A stretch of DNA of 55,665 nucleotides from a virus, in IMG/VR virus record IMGVR_UViG_3300045988_036843, positions 1-55,665 of that record. One strand, written 5' to 3'. Positions 1-55,665 of this stretch are shown here, piece by piece (the first letter of the stretch is position 1; each line of letters begins with the position of its first letter). The translations under genes and the position numbers were made by a program. Below the pieces are notes generated by a model. It was not told the DNA's origin. It did not search any database and saw only the letters and a program-made list of their open reading frames with translations.

Positions 1-119
1 AGTGGTTAGAGAACATCTAGCCGCTGGCTTTTGTGTTTACGGAACTATGAATCGGCAATCAGTGAATTTGTTTCCATCAAAATCACCGACGAATGTAACG
101 GTCTGGCCGGGAGAAAGCC
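1..119. repeat. Direct terminal repeat, left copy (identical to 55547..55665)
   Basis: Read by eye: agtggttagagaac...ggccgggagaaagcc occurs at both contig ends. It contains the 3' end of CDS 37..747 and half of a terminator. Confidence 0.95.
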
Positions 120-4140: not shown

Positions 4141-4348
4141 CCATGTGAAATAGTCGTAGACCGTCCACCAGTCCGAATCTCACGCCAGTTCTTGCCTTCG
4201 GCCTGCTCTGCTGGCTAACGGTGTAGCTTTTGGAGATAGAGGGTTGTAGGGGGAAAGAACCTTTGCGAAAGCATTTTGTTGTAATTTTCAGTTGTTGCAG
4301 TTGTCGCACCATTTTGGCGTGGGGGCCTCAAACAATTTATTTGTTTGA

Positions 4349-4416
4349 GGGGGGAGTTAGGGGGATTATAGGGGGTAATAGGGGTTGTAGGGGAAAGAGG
4401 GGGAAGAAAAGGGGGG
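4349..4416 (+). repeat. Array of seven G4-G6 tracts with 5-7 nt loops (G-quadruplex-prone; TAGGGG-type repeats)
   Basis: G tracts at 4349-54, 4360-64, 4371-75, 4381-84, 4390-93, 4399-4403 and 4411-16. A further GTAGGGGG lies at 4246-4253. Confidence 0.8.
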
Positions 4417-4423
4417 AAGATTG

Positions 4424-4466
4424 GATGCAAACGCATCATGTGCATCCATTTGCATGCAAACGCATC
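4424..4466. repeat. Two copies of palindromic (G)ATGCAAACGCATC
   Basis: Copies at 4424-4437 and 4454-4466. Each is GATGC-AAAC-GCATC, with TGCATCC/TGCATGC motifs between them. Confidence 0.75.
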
Positions 4467-4981
4467 TTGCCGATAGTCGCAGTCATTCTTTGCTTCCGTC
4501 TCACTTTGCCCTCCGATTGGACGAATAGTCGTTGGCATCTGTGCATCTGGCTGCTATCATCGCTGGAAAGGCGCGTAGGAGCCTGTCTGCCGCGTTTTTC
4601 TGATTGACCCAATAACTTTCACGTCTGACCTTGAAAAGCCGTTCTCCACGCTCCTGCATCGGGCTGATTGCGCGGTCTGGTTTGAGATATACCATCAGCA
4701 TCAACGGAGAGCCGCCTACGAGCGTCTGTGGCGCGTTTTTGCAATGAAACAGATAAAGTTATCGTCCAGTACCTAAAACGCCTTAAAACAGGCTTTCTCT
4801 CGGAGTTGGCGAAAAAACGAAAAGAGCCACTATCGCCGGTAGCCCTTTTACGTCCGTTATTTCATTGATGAAAAATATTTGCGAGGTTCAGGCGGTAACT
4901 TTATCGCCCAGACCCTGTTATCTGTTTTTCTTGCCTATTCTACTGTGACGATACGAACACAGAAGAGATGCTAGGCTACTA

Positions 4982-5273: not shown

Positions 5274-6497
5274 TTACATCCACACACATTCTTTGAACTG
5301 CTGCGTTTCCATCTGGAACGTGATGTCCAGTGACCCCACGTTGCCCTCTTTGTTCTTCTCAAGCGCAAAGTGATAATGCTGCTCTGGTCGCTTTTTCGTG
5401 GTCACGTTCTGCGCCAGCAGGATGATTGCATCTGCGTCCTGCTCAATCTGTCCGCTCTCTCGTAGGTCTGCGGCAGTCGGTGGAATACCTGCTCTTGCAG
5501 TCTCTCGATTGAGCTGTGCAAGTGCTACCACCAGCGTTCCTGTGGACTGCGCGAACTCATGCAGTGCCATGCTGATCTCCGTGACAGCACTGTATCGGTC
5601 TTTCGCTCCGGCTTGATGGATAAGCTGCAAATAGTCGATGAACACTACTTTGGCTTGCATCCTGATAGACTGCGTTCTAATCCACCCAACGCTCTTACCA
5701 GCGGCAGAGCGGACAAACAGAGGATATTTCTTGATGGCTGCCAGCCGGTCAAGTTCGTCAATGCTGACAGTCTTGTTTTTGACCGTGTGCAGCGGTACGC
5801 CTAGCTGGTTTGCGATAATACGGGCATAGAGTGTGTCCGGGTCGGTCTCTAGGCTGAAATACGCCACTTTGCGTCCGTTCTTGGCTATTTCACAGGCAAG
5901 TTGCAGGGACAGAGCGGTTTTACCCGCAGACGGTCTGCCGCCGATCACAACGAAGTTGCCCGGCACAAGATGCAAGTTGTTATCCAGAACTCTAAGCCCT
6001 GTACTGATATACTCCGGCTTATCATCCAGCTTGCGAATGTAGTTGTCTATGCCATCGCACATTGGGATGAAATCGCTTCTCTCGTTGTGCAGGTTGATAG
6101 CTTCGCCTAGCTGCTCATAGATGCCTGTCAAGTCTGCGTATCTGGTCGAGTTATCAACGATTTTGAACGCAATCTCTCTGGCTCTAGACAACGCTGCCTG
6201 TTCTTTGACGATTCTAGCCCATCCAAGCATCATGTCATGGGTGACGTTGCGGATGAACTCTGCACCAAAGGCATCCAGGCATTCACCCATTGCTTTCTTG
6301 CAGTTATCGTACCGCCCCATGACTTCTACCGGGTTCCACTTGTCATTGTGTTCCCAATATCCGAGAATGGCAGCGAATGTATCATGCAGTTCAGGGCAGA
6401 AATCGTCGATTTTAAGGTCTTGCAGCACATCGGCGTATTCCGAGAACGTGAGGACTGCCCCCAGCAGGATGTATTGGGTCTGATTTTCAATATTCAC
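5274..6497 (-). CDS. dnaB: Replicative DNA helicase, DnaB family
   Basis: 407 aa. Walker [25 protein letters not shown], and a RecA-like C-terminal domain with LAQLNRE and [10 protein letters not shown]. Confidence 0.85.
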
Positions 6498-16292: not shown

Positions 16293-16309
16293 TTTTCTTT
16301 CCTTTCTTC

Positions 16310-16359
16310 GGCTTCATTAGGCTTCATTGTTATTACTTTGGCTTAATACGGCTTCACAA
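16310..16359 (-). repeat. Five-slot 10-bp phased array of GGCTT(C/A)A units (reverse complement T(G/T)AAGCC)
   Basis: GGCTT starts at 16310, 16320, 16340 and 16350, in exact 10-bp register. The 16330 slot is degenerate. The array lies 18-67 nt upstream of the Sak4-like start. Confidence 0.8.
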
Positions 16360-16361
16360 AA

Positions 16362-21884: not shown

Positions 21885-22046
21885 TTTGCGTTTCCTTTCT
21901 CTTTGGGATTTTTTGACAATACTGTTATAACATATCTCGCTGTTTCAATGGAACAGCGACTTTTTTCAATTATTGTTTCACATTTTGAACAATATATCAG
22001 TTAAATTTCTTTGTTTTTGTATCGTTTTGTCGAAAGAGGGGTATTT

Positions 22047-22640
22047 ATGGATGATTATAGAATACGAGTGGCAAAAGCGTTAGAGATGGCAAGAGCGGAA
22101 TCTGGACTTAGCCAACAGAAGCTTGCGGACAAAATGGGTGTAGGCCGGACATCCATTTTTCGTTATGAGCAAGGAACAATGACCCCAGATGCTCCTACTA
22201 TCATAAAGTGGTTTGTATGCTGCGGTGTTGCGGCCAAGCCGTACATAGATACCTGTTTGCATCCTGGCTTGTTGGAAAGCCTGGCTAGCGATGCCAACAC
22301 CGAAAGAAAGAGGGATGCGCTGATAGAGCATATCAAAGAAGCCCATCCACAGGAAATTGACCTGCTGTGCTATCTGATCTATGGCAATCACGGCTCAGAT
22401 TACCTTGCCGTTCTGTGCGAAATGGTAGCCAACCTTCACACGACTTTGCGTGATCGTGTGTCCGTCTGTCGCACCGTCACAGGTCATTATGAGATGGCGC
22501 AGGCCACCAAAACCGACCCAGACCCAGACGGAACACAACCTAATATGCATATTTTGTATCAGGCACAAGACTGTGGAGAAGCTGCGGCCATGAAGCGAAA
22601 CGATTCTTATACCATCAATGAAGAAAACATTTTGCGCTGA
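22047..22640 (+). CDS. XRE-family HTH regulator with a ~130-aa C-terminal domain
   Basis: ORF track 22011..22640. ATG 22047. SGLSQQKLADKMGVGRTSIFRYEQG is an HTH. First gene of the plus-strand maintenance module. Confidence 0.7.
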   Translation: MDDYRIRVAKALEMARAESGLSQQKLADKMGVGRTSIFRYEQGTMTPDAPTIIKWFVCCGVAAKPYIDTCLHPGLLESLASDANTERKRDALIEHIKEAHPQEIDLLCYLIYGNHGSDYLAVLCEMVANLHTTLRDRVSVCRTVTGHYEMAQATKTDPDPDGTQPNMHILYQAQDCGEAAAMKRNDSYTINEENILR

Positions 22641-22953
22641 TTGTCGAATTATCGCAGTTTTTGAAGAACATCTTGTACACCTTTCAACGAATTGATTTCT
22701 ACTTGTGATGCATATATTTCTCTTGTTGCGTAGATAAATAACGTTAATATGTTATGTTTTTGCTCGCCCTAGCAAAATTATAACTTGATTATCAAAACTA
22801 AAACCTGTGCACATTAAGTACACCATTGTGTAAAATTGACTTTCATTTTGATAAAATAAGAAAAAAATAGAGATTATGGAGCTTCTTCTTTTGTTTAGTA
22901 GAAGATTATTTAACTCTTGTTTATAATCTTGTTTATATATAATGTAAGAATGG

Positions 22954-23044
22954 GTACGAGATGTGCATGATTGGGTACGAGATGTGCATAAGCGTGTACG
23001 AGATGTGCATCAAATAAGGGGGTCTATGTGTACAAGATGTGCAT
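22954..23044 (+). repeat. Four iterons GTAC(G/A)AGATGTGCAT upstream of rep
   Basis: Copies at 22954-68, 22975-89 and 22996-23010 (21-bp spacing) and at 23030-44. An AT-rich region precedes them. Additional GTACAC(C) motifs lie nearby. Confidence 0.8.
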
Positions 23045-23100
23045 GAATCAATGTAAGTGAATAAAACTATTGACGTGTACACCTTTATGTGATAAAATGA

Positions 23101-24201
23101 GTGTACAGAGAAAGGAGATGTACACTATTGGCAGAACTTTACGAAAATAACCTGATTGAAAAAAGCAAGGCGCTTGTTTGGGCAGAGTTTAATGATTACA
23201 CTGTTGGAGAACTGCGGCTTTTGGAAGTATATCTTAGCCGTATCAATCCTAGAGATGAAAAATCTAGCGAAGTCAAGTTTACCCTTTCGGAATATTGCGA
23301 TTTGCTTGGGCTGCGTGTTAATAGCAGGAACATCGAGAAACAAATTGAACATTTTCTTGGAAACGTTGTGACGCTTCCCCTTAATGATGATGGAAGCGAG
23401 TACAATATGTATACGCTTTTTACGAAAGCAAGTGTTACGATTGATAAAAACTTAGGAATGTACGTCGTTACCCTCTGCTGCAATCCTGAATTGAGAAGTG
23501 TTTTCTTCGATATTGCTAAGAGCGGTTATATCAAGTATAGACTTCGCTATACGGTTAAAATGAAATCGCAGTATAGCATTCTGCTCTATTCGATGCTGCG
23601 AGATATGATGAATCGTGGTGGAGACCATTTTGATATCAGCATCAATCGGCTCCGTTCACATCTCGGCGCAAATGCAGGATGCTATGAGAGTTTCAAAAAC
23701 TTTAGACGGAGAGTTTTGGATGCAGCAGTTGAAGAAATCAATGATGTGTCAGACATTTATGTTACTTACGAAAAAATCTCGTTTGGAAACAAGGCTGTTG
23801 CCGTTTCTTTTGTCGCCAAGAAAAAAGACGAAAAGCCTGTCGCTGAATTAAAGGCGAAAGAATATAAAGAGGAACTTCCGTTCAATGACAACATTCTTGT
23901 CAGCCGACCGAATAAAAAGGCTTACAGTGATGTAGATTGGGAGAATATAGCGCCAGACCTTGAGAAATCAGAGTGCATCGGCATTGCAAGAATGGTTGGG
24001 AAAAGGATGATCGAGAGCTTCCCTGCTATTAAGGCTCATAAGAAGAAAGCTGCCGTTGTAAATATTGTGAGTAATGCGTACAATAAAATCTTGAAAGACA
24101 AGAAGGAATGGCCTGATAACCCCGCTGGCTATCTTTACAGAGTTATCGAAAACTCCGACTTGGATGAGTTTGCGACTTTTGACGATAGCTTCTTGAAGTA
24201 G
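23101..24201 (+). CDS. rep: Plasmid-type replication initiator (Rep_3/RepB-like winged-helix)
   Basis: 366 aa. The layout NNLIEKSKALVWA...ELRLLEVYLSRI...YIKYRLRYTVKMKSQYSILLYSML...FKNFRRRVLDAAVEEIN, plus upstream iterons, resembles theta-plasmid initiators. Start is GTG 23101 or TTG 23128. Confidence 0.65.
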   Translation: MYRERRCTLLAELYENNLIEKSKALVWAEFNDYTVGELRLLEVYLSRINPRDEKSSEVKFTLSEYCDLLGLRVNSRNIEKQIEHFLGNVVTLPLNDDGSEYNMYTLFTKASVTIDKNLGMYVVTLCCNPELRSVFFDIAKSGYIKYRLRYTVKMKSQYSILLYSMLRDMMNRGGDHFDISINRLRSHLGANAGCYESFKNFRRRVLDAAVEEINDVSDIYVTYEKISFGNKAVAVSFVAKKKDEKPVAELKAKEYKEELPFNDNILVSRPNKKAYSDVDWENIAPDLEKSECIGIARMVGKRMIESFPAIKAHKKKAAVVNIVSNAYNKILKDKKEWPDNPAGYLYRVIENSDLDEFATFDDSFLK

Positions 24202-24574: not shown

Positions 24575-25111
24575 ATGGCAGCAAACGCTGGGTATTTGCT
24601 ATCTGATCGTTCAAAAAATGGGGATGAACAGTATACGCCAAGTTATGCTGTAAAACCTCTTTTGGAATTTATTCCGAACGACAAAATTATTTGGTGTCCG
24701 TTTGATAAAGAGTGGTCTGCATTCGTGAATGTTTTCAAAAAAGCAGGACATAACGTGATGTATAGCCATATTGACTATGGGCAGGATTTCTTTTGCTACG
24801 AGCCAAAAAAATGGGACATAATGGTTTCAAACCCACCATTCAGCAAAAAAGATGCTGTGCTCTGCAGAGCGTATAAACTAGAAAAACCGTTTGCACTGCT
24901 TCTTCCGGTAAACTGCATTCAAGGGGAAGAGAGATATAAAATTTTCAAGAATGACATTCAAATGCTTTGTTTTGACAAAAGAATAGGTTTTATAAATCAA
25001 AACAATATGGGCAAGCCGGTGGAGAGGGCGGCTTTTGGAAGTGCATATTTTTGCCGAAATCTACTTCCAACTAAACTTGAATTACGCAGTCTGAGCAAAG
25101 AAAACGCATAA
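24575..25111 (+). CDS. Small N6-adenine DNA methyltransferase-like protein
   Basis: 178 aa. GAGGAGG RBS. EQYTPSYAVKPL and IMVSNPPFSKKD (NPPF motif IV). Confidence 0.55.
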   Translation: MAANAGYLLSDRSKNGDEQYTPSYAVKPLLEFIPNDKIIWCPFDKEWSAFVNVFKKAGHNVMYSHIDYGQDFFCYEPKKWDIMVSNPPFSKKDAVLCRAYKLEKPFALLLPVNCIQGEERYKIFKNDIQMLCFDKRIGFINQNNMGKPVERAAFGSAYFCRNLLPTKLELRSLSKENA

Positions 25112-25175: not shown

Positions 25176-25955
25176 ATGGCAAAAATCATAGCTGTCGCCA
25201 ATCAGAAGGGCGGCACAGGAAAGACCACAACAAGCACCTGTTTGGCTGGTGCGTTGCAGTTACTTGGCGAGAAGGTCTTGCTAGTGGACTGCGATGCCCA
25301 GTGCAACGCAACGGACACCTACGGCGCACAGACAGAGGACGTATGCACCCTGTTTGATGTGATGACCAGGCAGGGCACGGTCGAAGAAGGAATCCAGCAC
25401 TGTGAAGCTGGTGACATTCTTCCGTCTGATAACGCATTGAAGGACATTGACGAACAGCTTGTGCGGGACATAGGCAAGAACTTCCGGCTGCGAGAAGCCC
25501 TTGAAAGCGTGTCTGAGCAGTATGATTACATTGTGTTGGACACTCCCCCGCAGCTTGGTCTTGCGCTTGTGAACGCTCTGATCGCCGCCAACAGCATCAT
25601 CGTGCCCATCACAGCAGACCGATATGCACTGGCTGGTTTGAGCCAGCTTTCGCAGACCATCGGCGATGTTCGCAGATATTTCAATCCGACTTTGAAGATT
25701 GAAGGATTGCTTCTGAATCAGTACAAGAGCCGTGAGAACCTGTCCAAAGAGGTTGTGGAGCAGCTTCCTGTGATTGCACAGAGCATGGGAACAACCCTGC
25801 TGGATGTGAAGATTAGACCATCTATGGGCGTCCGTAAGGCGCAGGCAGAGCGTCACAGCCTGTTTAGCGGAGACACGGCAAAGAGCACCAGCGCAGAGGA
25901 TTTCAAGGCGTTGGCGCAGATGATTGTGGAGGGAGATAACAATGCGACTGATTGA
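25176..25955 (+). CDS. parA: ParA/Soj-family partition ATPase
   Basis: 259 aa. Deviant Walker A ANQKGGTGKTTT, DCDAQ, IVLDTPP. Confidence 0.85.
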   Translation: MAKIIAVANQKGGTGKTTTSTCLAGALQLLGEKVLLVDCDAQCNATDTYGAQTEDVCTLFDVMTRQGTVEEGIQHCEAGDILPSDNALKDIDEQLVRDIGKNFRLREALESVSEQYDYIVLDTPPQLGLALVNALIAANSIIVPITADRYALAGLSQLSQTIGDVRRYFNPTLKIEGLLLNQYKSRENLSKEVVEQLPVIAQSMGTTLLDVKIRPSMGVRKAQAERHSLFSGDTAKSTSAEDFKALAQMIVEGDNNATD

Positions 25956-26277
25956 CGGCGAAATCGTTCAGAGTGAGATTTCTGGTTATTGGGCTGGAGC
26001 TAAAAGCAAGGAAGAAAAAGACGCATATATGGACGCTCTTGTGGCAGTTATGGACACAGCAGAGTTTCAAAAATGGACACCAACAAACTATGAATGGGAT
26101 TTGCCAAAAGAGAAGAAAGAAGTTTTGTTGGCTGACAAAGATGGAAGCATTTATATTGGATATTATTGGAAAGGGCTTTGGTGGAATAATCGGGGAATTG
26201 TAAAACAGTTCAATCCGGGAGAAATTGAATATTGGATGCCAATTCGTGAACTTCCGAAGAAAGTAGAGGAAATGTAA
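25942..26277 (+). CDS. DUF551-like protein (111 aa) between parA and the RHH gene
   Basis: ORF track 25924..26277. ATG 25942 behind a GGAGGGAG RBS. ...EIEYWMPIRELPKK. Confidence 0.5.
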   Translation: MRLIDGEIVQSEISGYWAGAKSKEEKDAYMDALVAVMDTAEFQKWTPTNYEWDLPKEKKEVLLADKDGSIYIGYYWKGLWWNNRGIVKQFNPGEIEYWMPIRELPKKVEEM

Positions 26278-26278
26278 A

Positions 26279-26851
26279 ATGAAATCAACCAGCAAAAAAT
26301 CCTCAGGCTTGCTTGGCGGGTTTGATTTCCGGCCTATTTTTTCGGAGCAGGCATTAAGCCGAAGTGAGCCAAAGGAAGAAGAAGTAAGCCAAGCAAAGCC
26401 GAACGAAGCTGAACAAGCACCGATTAAGCCCAGTGAAGCCACAGACAGCCATGCACAGCCCAATGAAGCACAGTTAAGCAGTATTAAGCCGAAGCATGCC
26501 AAAGACAGCGAAATACAGCCAAACAATGCCGTAGTAAGCGAAAGTAAGCCAAAGAAGTTGAAACAGGCGAGGGAAGTTCAACGTCTTATCGAACAGGGCG
26601 ATGTTCCCGGCGCACTAGCCGAAGCTGGTTTGACAAAGAAAAAAATCCCGATGCCAGTATCGCATCAGGGCGTTGCAAGTGGCGATGGCAAGCGTTCAAA
26701 GCGCATTACCATCCTTATGAGCGAGGAAGAGCGCAAGTACATCAACCGTGAAGCCAGACGGCATGGAATGACGATTGGGCAGTTCGTGTACGCTCTGGCG
26801 GTTGCAGCGGCAGAGGGAAAGATTGAGTTGGAGGATTTCTTGGAGGATTGA
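26279..26851 (+). CDS. Ribbon-helix-helix protein with 10-aa tandem repeats (candidate centromere-binding protein/regulator)
   Basis: 190 aa. C-terminal KRITILMSEEERKYINREARRHGMTIGQFVYALAV is an RHH fold. The N-terminal half has (xxxKPxEAxx)n repeats. Confidence 0.6.
   Translation: MKSTSKKSSGLLGGFDFRPIFSEQALSRSEPKEEEVSQAKPNEAEQAPIKPSEATDSHAQPNEAQLSSIKPKHAKDSEIQPNNAVVSESKPKKLKQAREVQRLIEQGDVPGALAEAGLTKKKIPMPVSHQGVASGDGKRSKRITILMSEEERKYINREARRHGMTIGQFVYALAVAAAEGKIELEDFLED
26351..26550 (+). repeat. 20 tandem 10-bp units (NNNNWRAGCC) in perfect register inside CDS 26279..26851
   Basis: Eleven units end exactly in AGCC and most others differ by 1-2 bases. There are no indels over 200 bp. Confidence 0.9.
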
Positions 26852-26854
26852 CGT

Positions 26855-27412
26855 ATGATTGTTTATAGACCTCATCGTGGCTCTTTGGAAGATGCCATGA
26901 AAGAAGTAAAAACATTTGACAACTGGTATCAGATGACACATTATATTGCAAATAATTGGAATTTGGCGGTTGGCAAGAAAGTGATAGACCCTGATGATAT
27001 TGTTATGGACGATAAACCGGTCAATGATGACCGTGTTGGTTGGAAAGACGTTCACATGGTTTTGGCAACTCGTATTGGGAACGACAATTTTATGGAGAAA
27101 TACGGAAACCCGCAGTGTATCGGGTATTGCACTTACGATGTCTCAAGTGTCAAAAAACACTTAACACCGAAAGAAGTAGTTGGTGAAAACTTTTATTGGG
27201 TCAAAATCCAGTACGATGATGACGAAAAATGCAGACACTTTCAAACTCCGTTCGTTTTGTTTGCGAATGACAAGGATGAAGCAAAGAAGAAAATCGAGCG
27301 AGAAGTTCCCGGCAAGTTTTCCATTGTCGGAGTGGTGGAACTTGACAAGAGCCTTGTATTCCATCCGCAAGACCTATTTGACATAAAAGCCGAATCCGTA
27401 CTTTGGGAATAA
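26855..27412 (+). CDS. Hypothetical protein (185 aa)
   Basis: GGAGGA RBS. No family recognised. Confidence 0.6.
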   Translation: MIVYRPHRGSLEDAMKEVKTFDNWYQMTHYIANNWNLAVGKKVIDPDDIVMDDKPVNDDRVGWKDVHMVLATRIGNDNFMEKYGNPQCIGYCTYDVSSVKKHLTPKEVVGENFYWVKIQYDDDEKCRHFQTPFVLFANDKDEAKKKIEREVPGKFSIVGVVELDKSLVFHPQDLFDIKAESVLWE

Positions 27413-27546
27413 GGAAAACGCTAGAGGATAGAACAGGCAGCTATCACCCATCGTTAGGAGATGTGGGAATCGTCACCCCACCTAGCTTTTTCAATAGTAA
27501 ACCCCTGTGTAGTCGCAATGACCGCACAGGGGAGAAAGGAAACGAC

Positions 27547-27721: not shown

Positions 27722-27767
27722 AAAAACCCCCTGTACGGAATTATAACCGTACAGGGGGTTCTGTTTT
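27722..27767. terminator. Bidirectional rho-independent terminator
   Basis: Perfect 12-bp stem CCCCCTGTACGG/CCGTACAGGGGG (27727-38 / 27747-58) flanked by an A-run and a T-run. Confidence 0.8.
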
Positions 27768-28688: not shown

Positions 28689-29207
28689 TTATTCTCCTTT
28701 CTTCGCTGCGGCAGTGGGCTTAGAAAAGCTCTTCTGCCACTTTTCCAGTTCATCCAGTCGGTGCACGAGGGCATTGTACTGCTCAATAGGCACATACTGC
28801 TGTGTCGGTGCAGCGGCCTGCTGTGCCTGTTGTGCTTGCATCTGTCTCCACGCTTCCGGGCTGTAAAACTCCTGCACATAGGATTCACAGGTGTCCGGGT
28901 TGAGCCGCTTGCAGTAGATCACGCCACTGCGCAAGTCCGGGCAGTAGGTCGGTCTGCCGTACAGGTCGGATGGTATTGCCAAAAATTCTTCCCTGCTGGA
29001 GACAGGTCTGCCAAGCAACCAGCCGCCATCTTGTGCCGACTGCTGAACAGGCTGCTGCCCATTCATCGGCTGTGGACGCTGCGGCTGTGCCTGTTGCATC
29101 TGCGTGTTGGGTAGGGGAGTGGCAAGCCCAACTGTGCCCATGCCACCGTAAGGATTGACAGGCTGTTGCGGAACGTAGGGCGCTCCGGGTGTCGGATAAT
29201 AGCTCAT
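28689..29207 (-). CDS. Gln/Pro-rich hypothetical protein (172 aa)
   Basis: ORF track 28689..29300. ATG 29207 behind an AAGGAGGGG RBS. Confidence 0.55.
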   Translation of the reverse strand: MSYYPTPGAPYVPQQPVNPYGGMGTVGLATPLPNTQMQQAQPQRPQPMNGQQPVQQSAQDGGWLLGRPVSSREEFLAIPSDLYGRPTYCPDLRSGVIYCKRLNPDTCESYVQEFYSPEAWRQMQAQQAQQAAAPTQQYVPIEQYNALVHRLDELEKWQKSFSKPTAAAKKGE

Positions 29208-29410
29208 AAAACACCCCTCCTTGTGCATCCAGTGTACCGCATCGGCAAAAAGCGAAGGACAACGAAGGTATAACGAAGGACAAAAAAGAAAAGCGCCCAC
29301 ACGGAAAAAACCGCATGAGCGCTTAACTATTAAAGGTGCACACTTTGAAGTGCAATACTAAAATATCACGTTTTGACTTGCAAGACAAGAGTTTCGACAA
29401 AACTAGTGTA

Positions 29411-55537: not shown

Positions 55538-55584
55538 AAAAAAGCCAGTGGTTAGAGAACATCTAGCCGCTGGCTTTTGTGTTT
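55538..55584. terminator. Bidirectional terminator spanning the repeat junction
   Basis: AAAAGCCAGTGG...CCGCTGGCTTTT stem (one G-T pair) with an A-run and a T-run, between convergent ant (+) and CDS 37..747 (-). Confidence 0.65.
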
Positions 55585-55665
55585 ACGGAACTATGAATCG
55601 GCAATCAGTGAATTTGTTTCCATCAAAATCACCGACGAATGTAACGGTCTGGCCGGGAGAAAGCC
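55547..55665. repeat. Direct terminal repeat, right copy (identical to 1..119)
   Basis: See the left copy. Confidence 0.95.

What the first reader, a model, noticed from the sequence alone, without database searches (positions are those of the whole stretch)
26351..26550. Twenty 10-bp AAGCC-type units in perfect helical register inside the RHH gene, read in all three frames
From 26351 to 26550 the sequence can be written as 20 consecutive 10-mers with no indel: gcattaagcc gaagtgagcc aaaggaagaa gaagtaagcc aagcaaagcc gaacgaagct ... aaagtaagcc. Eleven end exactly in AGCC and most of the others are within 1-2 substitutions. Because 10 is not a multiple of 3, the AGCC core is translated in all three phases (aAG CCn, AGC Cnn, gaA GCC). 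This argues that the constraint is on the nucleic acid, not only on the resulting 10-aa peptide repeat (xxxKPxEAxx). A 10-bp period places every core on one face of B-DNA. Arrays of short contiguous repeats are how RHH partition and regulatory proteins bind (omega of pSM19035, ParR/parC of R1, ParG). I found no repeat array flanking parA, so this intragenic array is a candidate centromere or autoregulatory site embedded in the gene of its own binding protein.
Basis: partly seen in the sequence, partly recalled or inferred. Interest (0 to 1): 0.85.

Follow-up and report, generated by a model that had tools for sequence, protein, structure and literature searches.

The report
Partition-site repeats inside their binder's gene
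A circular gut phage-plasmid carries twenty 10-bp DNA repeats inside the gene for its own plasmid-partition DNA-binding protein, and selection preserves the DNA motif rather than the encoded peptide, so the repeats are most likely that protein's binding site (centromere) written into its own coding sequence.

Summary
Window 26351-26550 is 20 gap-free 10-mers (consensus RAARWMAGCC), read in all three codon phases. The periodicity exceeds synonymous-codon controls (z 4-8).

The array encodes the disordered linker (residues 25-91) of a 190-aa protein. That protein has a conserved N-terminal KKxSGLLGG peptide and a C-terminal ribbon-helix-helix (RHH) domain. Its gene lies downstream of a Soj-like ParA, in a Rep3/iteron module of a 55.5-kb tailed phage-plasmid.

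In 80 close relatives, diversity follows the 10-mer register and not the codon register. Synonymous diversity is suppressed.

Every divergent homologue with a long linker also has a short-period array there: 10 or 20 bp in most lineages, 9 bp in one. Each lineage has its own core. Three lineages, and less clearly a fourth, have a second array of the same motif elsewhere:
- upstream of parA in L088, and weakly in L091;
- in another gene in L096/L097;

Best reading: these are binding arrays for the RHH protein, that is, a centromere, an operator, or both. This would be a new variant of type Ib partition.

Binding and partition are untested. One relative clade keeps the small array after the RHH gene was exchanged, which is unexplained.

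The parts
26351..26550 (+). Main array: 20 contiguous direct 10-bp units, consensus RAARWMAGCC. It doubles as codons 25-91, the disordered linker of the centromere-binding protein (CBP).
   Evidence: periodicity and controls; diversity follows the 10-mer register; residues 24-88 have pLDDT < 50.
26279..26851 (+). CBP gene, 190 aa. Parts: N-terminal peptide MKSTSKKSSGLLGGFDF (26279-26350); linker (26351-26550); helical hairpin, residues 90-115 (26546-26623); RHH domain, about residues 140-178 (26696-26812).
   Evidence: Pfam NikA-like E = 1.9e-5, below the curated cut-off. AF2 model. Top Foldseek hits are CopG, Arc, TacA, AtaR, AmrZ and NikA. Family alignments show K2, S5, G10 and the RHH residues invariant.
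25176..25955 (+). parA: small Soj-like Walker ATPase, 259 aa, with no N-terminal HTH.
   Evidence: Pfam AAA_31 1.3e-53, CbiA, MipZ. PDB: 8ray 3e-41, H. pylori Soj 6iub, T. thermophilus Soj 1wcv. PHROG ParA-like.
25942..26277 (+). Variable cassette ORF (111 aa) inserted between parA and the CBP gene. Probably not part of the system.
   Evidence: Replaced by unrelated ORFs in L001 and L002, and absent in L083, L091 and L096-98, where parA and the CBP gene abut or overlap.
16310..16359 (-). Second array, non-coding, five units. On the minus strand it reads TTGTGAAGCC GTATTAAGCC AAAGTAATAA CAATGAAGCC TAATGAAGCC. It ends about 17 nt before the ATG (16292) of an AAA_24 (Sak4-like) ATPase gene.
   Evidence: It is the only place besides the main array with 3 or more in-register [AC]AGCC cores within 50 bp; 0 of 200 simulated genomes have one. 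Cores are conserved in relatives.
23101..24201 (+). Rep3-type replication initiator (context: the same plus-strand module).
   Evidence: Pfam Rep3_N 6e-21, Rep3_C 2.5e-14.
22951..23010 (+). Putative Rep iterons: 21 bp x 2.9, TGGGTACGAGATGTGCATAAG. Unrelated to the AAGCC units.
   Evidence: The best promoter-like site, 23070-23098, lies just downstream of them.
27723..27762 (.). Bidirectional terminator-like hairpin that closes the plus-strand rep-parA-CBP module.

Best explanation
The 200-bp array is a cis-acting protein-binding site: the centromere-like site (possibly also an autoregulatory roadblock) of a type Ib-like partition module. It is written into the coding sequence of the protein that reads it.

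Proposed mechanism; all steps are inferred, none is shown:
1. Dimers of the C-terminal RHH domain bind successive 10-bp units cooperatively, one dimer per unit, contacting the [A/C]AGCC core through the beta-ribbon. This coats about 200 bp.
2. The disordered linkers project the conserved N-terminal KKxSGLLGG peptides outward. These peptides engage nucleoid-bound ParA-ATP and stimulate its ATPase, which segregates the circular prophage-plasmid.
3. The five-unit array at 16310-16359 is a second site for the same protein. It could be an operator for the AAA_24 operon, an auxiliary centromere, or both, as with the several omega sites of pSM19035.

The linker peptide only has to be hydrophilic and flexible. 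The DNA constraint therefore dominates its evolution, and the gene becomes a self-contained cassette of protein plus site.
For: SHOWN BY COMPUTATION

1. The periodicity is a DNA property. It exceeds synonymous controls in the window (z 6.4-8.3 on resampling, 4.0-4.4 on permutation). The same holds in homologue L088 (z 6.4 and 3.6) and in L091 at lag 20 (z 4.1 and 2.7).

2. Purifying selection acts in the 10-bp register. The data are 81 sequences, 74 of them unique, all 573 nt with no indels.
- Diversity (pi) inside the array is explained by 10-mer position: eta2 0.194, z 7.45, 0 of 5000 permutations reach it.
- It is not explained by codon position: eta2 0.02, p 0.13.
- Other periods from 5 to 15 give z of 3.4 or less.
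- Two-fold degenerate sites have pi 0.049 inside against 0.156 outside; four-fold sites 0.142 against 0.232.
- Non-degenerate sites have pi 0.051 inside against 0.013 outside.
- 10-mer position 1, the degenerate position of the consensus, evolves at the neutral level in all three codon phases (0.15-0.25).

3. It is a family trait. Every divergent CBP homologue with a long linker has a short-period array in the linker DNA.
- L088: 12 units of CAGWGGWAGT.
- L092, L096, L097, L098: xxACAGCGxx.
- L094, L095: G[G/A]AAG cores, seen by eye in 10-mer print-outs; weak or 20-nt lag signal and no statistical control.
- L091: 20-bp units of the CACTTTGAGGCAGAA type.
- L083 clade: 19 units of the 9-bp CAGAWTGAR.
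. Where several kb of the locus are held, the linker holds the most periodic segment, or the second most periodic in L088. L091 is the exception, where only the array upstream of parA ranks.

4. Second arrays carry the same lineage-specific motif.
- L088: five hits at exactly 10-bp spacing in the rep-parA intergenic region, found with a PWM built only from the linker units; 0 of 300 simulations.
- L096 and L097: five units inside another gene's low-complexity region; 0 of 300.
- Window: 16310-16359, non-coding; 0 of 200.
- Differences between relatives in that small array fall outside the cores, and one unit toggles between AAGCC and CAGCC, both of which occur in the main array.

5. Protein anatomy fits a partition adaptor.
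- RHH fold.
- Disordered residues 24-88.
- The N-terminal motif is conserved across the family. It resembles the ParB N-terminal peptide MAKNKVLGRG that binds H. pylori Soj (PMC11229316); the window's ParA is Soj-like.

6. Cassette behaviour. ParA is 96.5% identical between the window and L083. The CBP is 45% identical, although its first 20 residues are 85% identical, and its array type differs.

7. There is no RNA structure (z +0.23) and no Rfam hit in the array. The motif is unrelated to the Rep iterons.

FROM ESTABLISHED KNOWLEDGE
RHH partition proteins bind arrays of short contiguous repeats. ParB of pSM19035 needs at least 4 gap-free heptads to activate ParA (PMC9499535). ParG binds degenerate tetramer boxes in parH (PMC3130281 abstract).
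Against: 1. No binding, footprint or plasmid-stability data exist.

2. The array sits inside the CBP gene, so array type and RHH type travel together by linkage alone. Only the second arrays provide less-linked support.

3. All four L083-clade genomes examined (exchanged CBP, 9-bp array) keep the AAGCC small array with intact cores. Two of them (L223, L225) have no window-type RHH within 10 kb either side. Three explanations remain open: another factor reads [A/C]AGCC; the exchanged RHH still recognises the shared [C/A]AG core; or a paralogue lies elsewhere in those genomes. None was tested.

4. Every array, coding or not, is in the sense orientation relative to local transcription. An RNA-level role is therefore not excluded.

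5. The 9-bp array of the L083 clade is not distinguishable from a tripeptide repeat (z 2.1 and 0.8).

6. The L091 match between the upstream and linker motifs is weak.

7. The 80 relatives were chosen as the best tblastn hits. That ascertainment can lower non-synonymous diversity, though it cannot create a 10-nt period.

8. The window has another non-coding repeat region, the G-tract array at 4340-4420, which could in principle be the true centromere.
Confidence: 0.6

Rival explanations
1. Operator only. The RHH protein binds both arrays, but purely for transcriptional control: autorepression by roadblock within its own gene, and control of the AAA_24 operon. The true centromere is elsewhere, or partition does not depend on these arrays.
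For: - The small array sits immediately upstream of a gene start.
- The L088 and L091 arrays sit in the classic operator position upstream of parA.
- Another non-coding repeat region exists at 4340-4420.
- From my own knowledge: ParG, omega and many other RHH proteins are transcriptional repressors.
Against: - The N-terminal ParA-type peptide is conserved across the family, so the protein is a partition adaptor and needs a site.
- Twenty contiguous units far exceed what repression needs. pSM19035 arrays of 4 or more contiguous units are what activate ParA.
- From my own knowledge: in type Ib systems the operator and the centromere usually coincide.
- No array lies upstream of parA in this window.
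Confidence: 0.15
2. The arrays are read by a factor other than the RHH protein, either another phage protein or a host protein. The CBP linker merely hosts the site.
For: - The AAGCC small array keeps intact cores in L223 and L225, which carry a different RHH and no window-type RHH within 10 kb either side.
- Co-variation between the main array and the RHH is trivially explained by physical linkage.
Against: - The CBP is the lineage-specific DNA binder of the module.
- Similar beta-strands go with similar cores: RITILM in the window with [AC]AGCC, and RITIIM in L092, L096-98 with ACAGCG.
- The window has no RHH paralogue.
- Rep iterons are unrelated.
- L221 and L222 keep a truncated window-type RHH together with a residual array.
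Confidence: 0.1
3. RNA-level element. The repeated motif acts in the mRNA, for example as a platform for an RNA-binding factor or as an unstructured translational leader, rather than in duplex DNA.
For: - All arrays are sense-oriented relative to local transcription. This includes the three non-coding ones: window 16310-16359, and the arrays upstream of parA in L088 and L091.
- The small array ends at a ribosome-binding site.
Against: - No stable structure (z +0.23) and no Rfam family.
- Three of three sense-oriented non-coding arrays is only p = 1/8 by chance.
- For the coding arrays, sense orientation is forced, because the reverse complement would encode hydrophobic residues (antisense translation).
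- A strict 10-nt spacing of contiguous direct repeats is the signature of RHH-DNA arrays, and no RNA-binding candidate is evident.
Confidence: 0.07
4. Neutral by-product. The array is a degenerate minisatellite created by slippage or conversion in a tolerant low-complexity linker, kept periodic by concerted evolution and with no function.
For: - The linker peptide is nearly unconstrained: non-degenerate pi is 0.051 inside against 0.013 outside.
- Linker length differs between distant lineages, 131-197 aa.
- Conversion between units could mimic conservation of the shared positions.
Against: - There is no length variation in 80 relatives.
- Units are only about 58% alike, which makes them poor substrates for slippage or conversion.
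- Synonymous diversity is depressed up to three-fold, and only consensus position 1 is at the neutral level.
- The same motif recurs in separate arrays kilobases away, in the opposite orientation, and in non-coding DNA.
- A 10-nt unit would shift the reading frame unless gained or lost in threes.
Confidence: 0.05
5. The signal reflects an overlapping antisense gene (ORF 25903-26526, minus strand, 207 aa).
For: A long open antisense frame spans most of the array.
Against: - Its third codon positions coincide with the sense third positions, so it cannot explain suppressed synonymous diversity or a 10-nt pattern (frame arithmetic).
- Its remainder covers the variable cassette, which is replaced in close relatives.
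- Its product is the hydrophobic mirror expected from GGCTT repeats.
Confidence: 0.01

Closest known systems
delta/omega partition-regulation system of pSM19035 (RHH ParB omega; parS made of contiguous 7-bp heptads at several promoters)
   Same: - A small Walker ParA plus an RHH protein with a flexible N-terminal tail that stimulates ParA.
- Sites are gap-free arrays of short repeats, with one dimer per unit.
- Several arrays lie on one replicon and serve both regulation and partition.
- Contiguity is essential (PMC9499535).
   Different: - Units here are 10 bp (9 bp in one clade), not 7 bp, and are all direct.
- The main array has 20 units, and it lies inside the coding sequence of the binding protein rather than in promoters.
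- There is no detectable sequence similarity to omega.
- Binding is untested.
ParF/ParG/parH of TP228 (type Ib)
   Same: - Type Ib organisation: ParA-family ATPase, RHH protein with an unstructured N-terminal tail, and a centromere made of an array of degenerate short boxes (PMC3130281 abstract).
- The tail of ParG activates the ATPase (cited in PMC11229316).
   Different: - parH lies upstream of parF and is non-coding, with tetramer boxes separated by AT-rich spacers.
- The ParA here is Soj-like rather than ParF-like.
- The linker here is much longer, about 65 disordered residues.
pB171 par2 (parC1 upstream and parC2 downstream of parA-parB); recalled from my own knowledge
   Same: Two separate arrays of the same short repeat flank or accompany a type Ib parAB operon, as in L088 (array upstream of parA plus a second array).
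   Different: Both pB171 arrays are intergenic. Here the downstream array is inside the CBP reading frame, and in this window the upstream array is missing.
ParR/parC of pSK41 and R1 (type II); recalled from my own knowledge
   Same: RHH dimers bind 10- to 11-bp steps of tandem direct repeats and form a continuous superhelical nucleoprotein filament. That is a plausible structural model for 20 units of 10 bp.
   Different: The motor there is the actin-like ParM; here it is a Walker ParA. parC lies upstream and is non-coding.
Chromosomal parS sites inside spo0J/parB genes; recalled from my own knowledge
   Same: A centromere sequence located within the coding sequence of its own binding protein.
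   Different: Those are single 16-bp palindromes bound by HTH, CTP-dependent ParB, and they fit an ordinary structured coding region. Here a 200-bp array of direct repeats defines the whole linker sequence and dominates its evolution.

Membership tests
Type Ib partition system (small ParA + RHH centromere-binding protein) | Small Walker-type ParA with no N-terminal HTH domain | tested here: met
   259 aa. Pfam AAA_31, CbiA and MipZ domains only. The closest solved structures are ParA and Soj proteins of about 255-276 aa.
Type Ib partition system (small ParA + RHH centromere-binding protein) | Partner protein with a ribbon-helix-helix DNA-binding domain | tested here: met
   - Pfam NikA-like E = 1.9e-5, 25.2 bits against a cut-off of 27.
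- PF21983 is precomputed on most homologues.
- AF2 gives strand-less helix-helix at residues 149-178 with pLDDT 83-93.
- The top 15 or so Foldseek PDB hits are all RHH proteins, with CopG at TMt 0.82 and probability 0.98.
- The PDB sequence search alone was not significant.
Type Ib partition system (small ParA + RHH centromere-binding protein) | CBP gene directly downstream of parA in one operon | tested here: met
   Adjacent or overlapping in L083, L091 and L096-98. In the window a variable 111-aa ORF is inserted between them. Same strand, no terminator between.
Type Ib partition system (small ParA + RHH centromere-binding protein) | Flexible N-terminal tail of the CBP that contacts and stimulates ParA | tested here: inconclusive
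   The motif M-K-x-[TS]-S-K-K-x-S-G-L-L-G-G is conserved across the family, with K2, S5 and G10 invariant. It is kept at 85% identity when the rest of the CBP is exchanged. It resembles the HpParB N10 peptide MAKNKVLGRG. Function cannot be tested here.
Type Ib partition system (small ParA + RHH centromere-binding protein) | Centromere made of an array of short repeats specifically bound by the CBP | not testable with these tools
   Arrays exist and are under DNA-level selection. Binding needs EMSA, footprinting or ChIP.
Type Ib partition system (small ParA + RHH centromere-binding protein) | Confers stable inheritance and incompatibility | not testable with these tools
   Needs a plasmid-stability assay.
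Type II ParMRC | Actin-like ParM motor | tested here: not met
   The adjacent NTPase is a Walker ParA.
Rep3 iterons (origin or handcuffing sites) | Sequence matching the iterons next to rep | tested here: not met
   The iterons at 22951-23010 are 21-bp TGGGTACGAGATGTGCATAAG, unrelated to RAARWMAGCC.
Slippage-prone coding tandem repeat (contingency-type or neutral minisatellite) | Near-identical units and copy-number polymorphism among close relatives | tested here: not met
   Units are about 58% alike. All 80 relatives have exactly 573 nt. Most of the protein clusters listed are 190 aa.
Structured RNA or known RNA family | Stable or conserved secondary structure, or an Rfam match | tested here: not met
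   Folding z-score +0.23. No Rfam hit within the array at E of 1 or below.

The most novel reading that the evidence does not exclude
A bacterial centromere encoded inside the reading frame of its own binding protein. A single gene would carry the ParA-activating peptide, the DNA-binding domain and, as the codons of the linker between them, the 20-unit cis site. Together these make a self-contained, exchangeable partition and incompatibility cassette. The design recurs with lineage-specific 10-bp motifs across a family of gut phage-plasmids. It could favour cis-loading of nascent protein onto the DNA that encodes it.
Probability: 0.5. Interest if true: 0.85.

Novelty: new variant of a known kind. 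Interest (0 to 1): 0.78.

Why it matters
If confirmed, this is a clean natural example of dual coding in which a protein-binding DNA array, not the protein, dictates the sequence of a coding region.

- It would show that partition sites can hide inside genes, where annotation pipelines and centromere searches that look only at intergenic repeats miss them.
- It would explain how partition specificity, and therefore incompatibility, can be exchanged as a one-gene cassette while ParA stays constant. That pattern is seen between the window and the L083 clade.
- The element belongs to an abundant family of human-gut phage-plasmids, with more than 500 IMG/VR relatives. It therefore bears on how such phages persist as plasmids.
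- The hypothesis is directly testable by peptide-preserving recoding of the linker.

Tried and rejected
- Tandem Repeats Finder sees only fragments of the array: 26396-26418 and 26485-26554, with low scores. It would have missed it as a whole.
- Antisense ORF 25903-26526 was rejected on frame arithmetic and lack of conservation.
- RNA structure and Rfam gave nothing.
- A PWM scan at a high threshold found no second cluster. The small array emerged only later, from an in-register core search.
- A PDB sequence search with the family profile was not significant; the best RHH hit was CopG at E = 0.79. Fold comparison was needed.
- PHROGs has no family for the CBP.
- The genome-contig scan failed once because the alignment was too divergent, and then found no relative. 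The host is therefore unknown.
- P0132 was not found in viral contigs; it was retrieved through the look-up of encoding contigs instead.
- The spaced GGCTT pattern scan of viral contigs was swamped by the main array and gave only one small-array hit.
- L083-clade 9-bp array: the DNA-beyond-peptide test was negative, so that clade neither supports nor refutes the idea.
- L091: the upstream and linker motif match did not pass a strict in-register test.
- Four literature searches for a repeat-array centromere inside its binder's gene found no precedent. The one 'within the parB gene' hit concerns an mRNA structure. A fifth search was uninformative. The library is open-access only, so absence is weak evidence.
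Full report
1. THE OBSERVATION

The consensus is RAARWMAGCC.
- G at position 8 in 19/20 units, C at position 9 in 18/20, C at position 10 in 14/20.
- A at positions 2, 3, 6 and 7 in 14-17/20.
- Eleven units end in AGCC.

The array starts in phase with ORF 26279-26851. The core is therefore read as AGC-C (Ser), AAG-CC (Lys-Pro) and GAA-GCC (Glu-Ala), and the core is present in all three phase classes. Base identity at lag 10 (0.579) is not lower than at lag 30 (0.547), so the repeating entity is the 10-mer and not a 10-residue peptide unit.

The periodicity exceeds every control:
- synonymous resampling, z 6.5 and 8.3, 0 of 2000;
- permuting the region's own synonymous codons, z 4.0 and 4.4, 0 of 2000;
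- shuffling codon order, z 9 and 24.

In a blind scan of the whole window for lags 6-12, the two most periodic 80-nt stretches are both in this array.

2. CONTEXT

The window's ends overlap by 119 bp, so this is a complete circular or terminally redundant 55,546-bp genome. It encodes a terminase, portal, major head protein and tape measure protein. It also carries a plasmid-type module on the plus strand:
- an HTH regulator (22011-22640);
- 21-bp iterons (22951-23010);
- a Rep3 initiator (23101-24201);
- two small genes;
- a Soj-like ParA (25176-25955);
- a variable 111-aa ORF;
- the 190-aa protein containing the array;
- one more ORF and a bidirectional terminator (27723-27762).

It is therefore a tailed phage-plasmid. 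More than 500 close relatives of 50-60 kb occur in IMG/VR, and the two GenBank relatives come from human faeces. No relative was found in the genome collection, so the host is unknown.

3. THE PROTEIN

AlphaFold2 gives the following:
- residues 24-88, which are exactly the array, at pLDDT below 50 (disordered);
- a helical hairpin at residues 90-115;
- two confident helices at 149-161 and 166-178.

The best PDB fold matches are all ribbon-helix-helix proteins: CopG-DNA at TMt 0.82, then Arc, TacA, AtaR, AmrZ and NikA. Pfam NikA-like scores just below its cut-off.

The N-terminus, MKSTSKKSSGLLGGFDF, is the most conserved part of the family outside the RHH domain. It resembles the ParB N-terminal peptide that binds Soj-type ParA (PMC11229316). 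The window's ParA is Soj-like.

The protein thus has the anatomy of a type Ib centromere-binding protein (CBP): a ParA-activating tail, a flexible linker and an RHH DNA-binding domain.

4. IS THE CONSTRAINT ON THE DNA?

Eighty relatives all have a 573-nt gene with no indel. Outside the array, diversity shows the usual coding signature. In the RHH part, pi at codon positions 1, 2 and 3 is 0.020, 0.0005 and 0.208. Inside the array that signature is almost erased: 0.051, 0.049 and 0.081.

Diversity by site class:

| Site class | pi inside the array | pi outside |
|---|---|---|
| Two-fold degenerate | 0.049 | 0.156 |
| Four-fold degenerate | 0.142 | 0.232 |
| Non-degenerate | 0.051 | 0.013 |

Diversity inside the array is structured by 10-mer position (eta2 0.194, z 7.45, 0 of 5000 permutations). 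It is not structured by codon position (eta2 0.02, p 0.13). No other period between 5 and 15 comes close.

The degenerate consensus position 1 evolves at the neutral level in all three codon phases. Positions 2, 4, 6 and 8-10 are four to eight times slower. So the peptide is nearly free and the nucleotide motif is conserved.

Three alternatives do not account for this:
- The antisense ORF shares third positions with the sense frame, so it cannot produce this pattern.
- The RNA has no structure (z +0.23).
- The 80 loci were the best tblastn hits. That ascertainment cannot generate a 10-nt period.

5. HOMOLOGUES

A search of the 50%-identity protein representatives finds only a handful of divergent full-length relatives. 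All sit in the same Rep3-ParA-CBP module. Their linkers are unalignable as peptides, but each carries a short-period DNA array.

| Lineage | Linker array | Test |
|---|---|---|
| L088 | 12 units of CAGWGGWAGT, 10 bp | lag-10 z 6.4 and 3.6 against synonymous controls |
| L092, L096, L097, L098 | xxACAGCGxx, 10 bp | L092 first segment z 2.4, second segment not beyond permuted codons; L096-98 by blind periodicity scan only |
| L094, L095 | G[G/A]AAG cores, 10-bp register | read by eye; lag signal weak or at 20 nt; no control run |
| L091 | 20-bp units | z 4.1 and 2.7 |
| L083 clade | 19 units of CAGAWTGAR, 9 bp | not separable from a Q-x-E tripeptide repeat, z 2.1 and 0.8 |

(Sequences.) Where several kb of the locus are held, the linker holds the most periodic segment, or the second most periodic in L088; L091 is the exception, where only the array upstream of parA ranks. 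A period that is not a multiple of three, recurring with different motifs, cannot come from peptide repeats.

Similar RHH beta-strands go with similar cores: RITILM with [AC]AGCC, and RITIIM with ACAGCG. Different strands (RMAIAM, RVSV[PA]M, RRMCVAM) go with different cores. All cores share [C/A]AG, and the beta-strand arginine is invariant. This co-variation is partly trivial, because the array and the domain lie in the same gene.

6. SECOND ARRAYS

These provide the less-linked evidence.
- L088. A PWM built only from the linker units lights up five sites at exactly 10-bp spacing in the 78-bp rep-parA intergenic region. That is the classic operator and centromere position in type Ib systems. 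In-register clusters occur only at these two places, and in 0 of 300 simulated sequences.
- L096 and L097. Five ACAGCG units lie, on the other strand, in the low-complexity part of another gene about 3 kb away (0 of 300).
- L091. CACTTTGA occurs three times at 10-bp spacing upstream of parA and twice in the linker. This is suggestive only.
- This window. The minus strand of 16310-16359 reads TTGTGAAGCC GTATTAAGCC AAAGTAATAA CAATGAAGCC TAATGAAGCC. This non-coding array lies just upstream of the ribosome-binding site and ATG of an AAA_24 (Sak4-like) ATPase gene.

In the window, only the main array and this site have 3 or more in-register [AC]AGCC cores within 50 bp, and none of 200 simulated genomes has any. 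In relatives the cores are kept while the non-core positions vary. One unit switches between AAGCC and CAGCC, the two variants used in the main array.

7. CASSETTE EXCHANGE AND A CAVEAT

Between the window and the L083 clade, ParA is 96.5% identical and the flanks about 92-95%. The CBP is 45% identical, except that its first 20 residues are 85% identical, and it carries the other array type.

L083 (L221) and L084 (L222) still hold a truncated window-type copy, residues 72-190, together with a three-unit residual array. L223 and L225 have none within 10 kb either side. Yet all four keep the AAGCC small array with intact cores.

Three readings are possible, and I could not decide between them:
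- the exchanged RHH still recognises the shared [C/A]AG core;
- a window-type RHH lies elsewhere in those genomes;
- a different factor reads [A/C]AGCC.

This is the main evidence against the simple model. A second caveat is that every array, coding or not, is sense-oriented with respect to transcription, so an RNA-level role is not strictly excluded.

8. MECHANISM

The best-supported reading is that the arrays are binding sites for the RHH protein. The 20-unit array would be the centromere of a type Ib-like partition module. It may also act as an autoregulatory roadblock. The five-unit array would be an operator or auxiliary site.

One RHH dimer per 10-bp unit would coat 200 bp and display up to 40 ParA-activating tails. 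The requirement of pSM19035 for four or more gap-free repeats to activate ParA (PMC9499535) gives a rationale for the strict contiguity and the absence of indels.

What is shown: DNA-level selection in a 10-bp register, family-wide arrays, second arrays with matching motifs, and the protein's anatomy.

9. COMPARISON WITH KNOWN SYSTEMS AND NOVELTY

It works like the type Ib RHH systems: omega of pSM19035, ParG/parH of TP228, and pB171 parC1/parC2. Structurally it may resemble ParR/parC filaments.

It meets the testable membership features of type Ib: a small ParA, an RHH partner, operon linkage and a conserved N-terminal tail. It differs in that the principal repeat array lies inside the reading frame of the binding protein and dictates the linker sequence.

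Chromosomal parS sites inside parB are single palindromes for HTH ParB (recalled from my own knowledge), not arrays that define the coding sequence. Four literature searches found no precedent, and a fifth was uninformative.

I rate it a new variant of a known kind. Confidence is about 0.6 for the binding-site and centromere reading. The finding is of high interest because the hypothesis is directly testable by peptide-preserving recoding.

Noticed in passing
window 1-119 and 55547-55665: The two ends of the window are identical over 119 bp. The sequence is therefore a complete circular or terminally redundant genome of 55,546 bp (GC 48.4%).
   Followed up: partly
window 27417-27489 (+): Full-length match to the Rfam 'skipping-rope' RNA motif (RF02924): 58.9 bits against a gathering score of 36.7, E = 1.2e-12. 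It lies just downstream of ORF 26855-27412, in the same plus-strand module.
   Followed up: no
window 22951-23010 (+): Three 21-bp direct repeats (TGGGTACGAGATGTGCATAAG) upstream of the Rep3 gene, with the best sigma-70-like promoter at 23070-23098. These are presumably the plasmid-origin iterons. L083 has different 21/43-bp repeats in front of a diverged rep gene (L083 1622-1717).
   Followed up: partly
window 4340-4470: A non-coding G-tract array: GGGGG every 9-12 bp, about 7 copies, at 4340-4420. It is followed by imperfect inverted repeats (TGGATGCAAACGCATC ... GCATGCAAACGCATC). It lies about 800 bp from a DnaB-like helicase gene (5274-6497, minus strand). It could be a lytic origin or a packaging site. 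It is also the only other repeat region that could compete as a centromere candidate.
   Followed up: no
window 29253-29283 (read on the minus strand); L096 and L097 upstream of their 171- and 174-aa genes: Three TTGTCCTTCG-type repeats at 10-11-bp spacing lie upstream of gene 28689-29207 (minus strand). They are conserved upstream of the homologous gene in the distant L096 and L097 plasmids, even though the CBP arrays differ there. This is probably the operator of a different, conserved regulator.
   Followed up: partly
window 25942-26277; L001 4762-5097; L002 4784-5371; L088 2038-2454: The junction between parA and the CBP gene is an insertion hot spot. Unrelated small ORFs occupy it in close relatives. 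Several have C-x2-C ... C-x2-C motifs. In L083, L091 and L096-98 the two genes abut or overlap.
   Followed up: partly
L083 4898-5218 (same as L221 10859-11215); L222 10829-11185: Genomes whose CBP was replaced by the 9-bp-array type retain a truncated copy of the window-type protein. It has the hairpin and the RHH domain (106 aa) but no N-terminal peptide and only about 3 array units. It is either a possible stand-alone regulator or a decaying remnant.
   Followed up: partly
L096 5321-5375 and L097 5601-5650 (minus strand): The second ACAGCG arrays lie inside the low-complexity region of a 171- or 174-aa protein. As a result that protein and the CBP linker share the peptide QPNTAQYSAGQ. This is a second case of a repeat array embedded in coding sequence.
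   Followed up: partly
window 16293-16361 compared with L222, L223, L225: The small array and the end of the upstream gene are conserved, while the gene downstream of it (AAA_24 in the window) is replaced by unrelated genes. The array therefore sits at a mosaic module junction.
   Followed up: no
window 24575-25111 (+): A 178-aa ORF with a sub-threshold match to the EcoRI-type adenine methyltransferase family (E = 2e-5, 24.6 bits against a cut-off of 26.4). It lies between rep and parA and is absent from L083 and L088.
   Followed up: no
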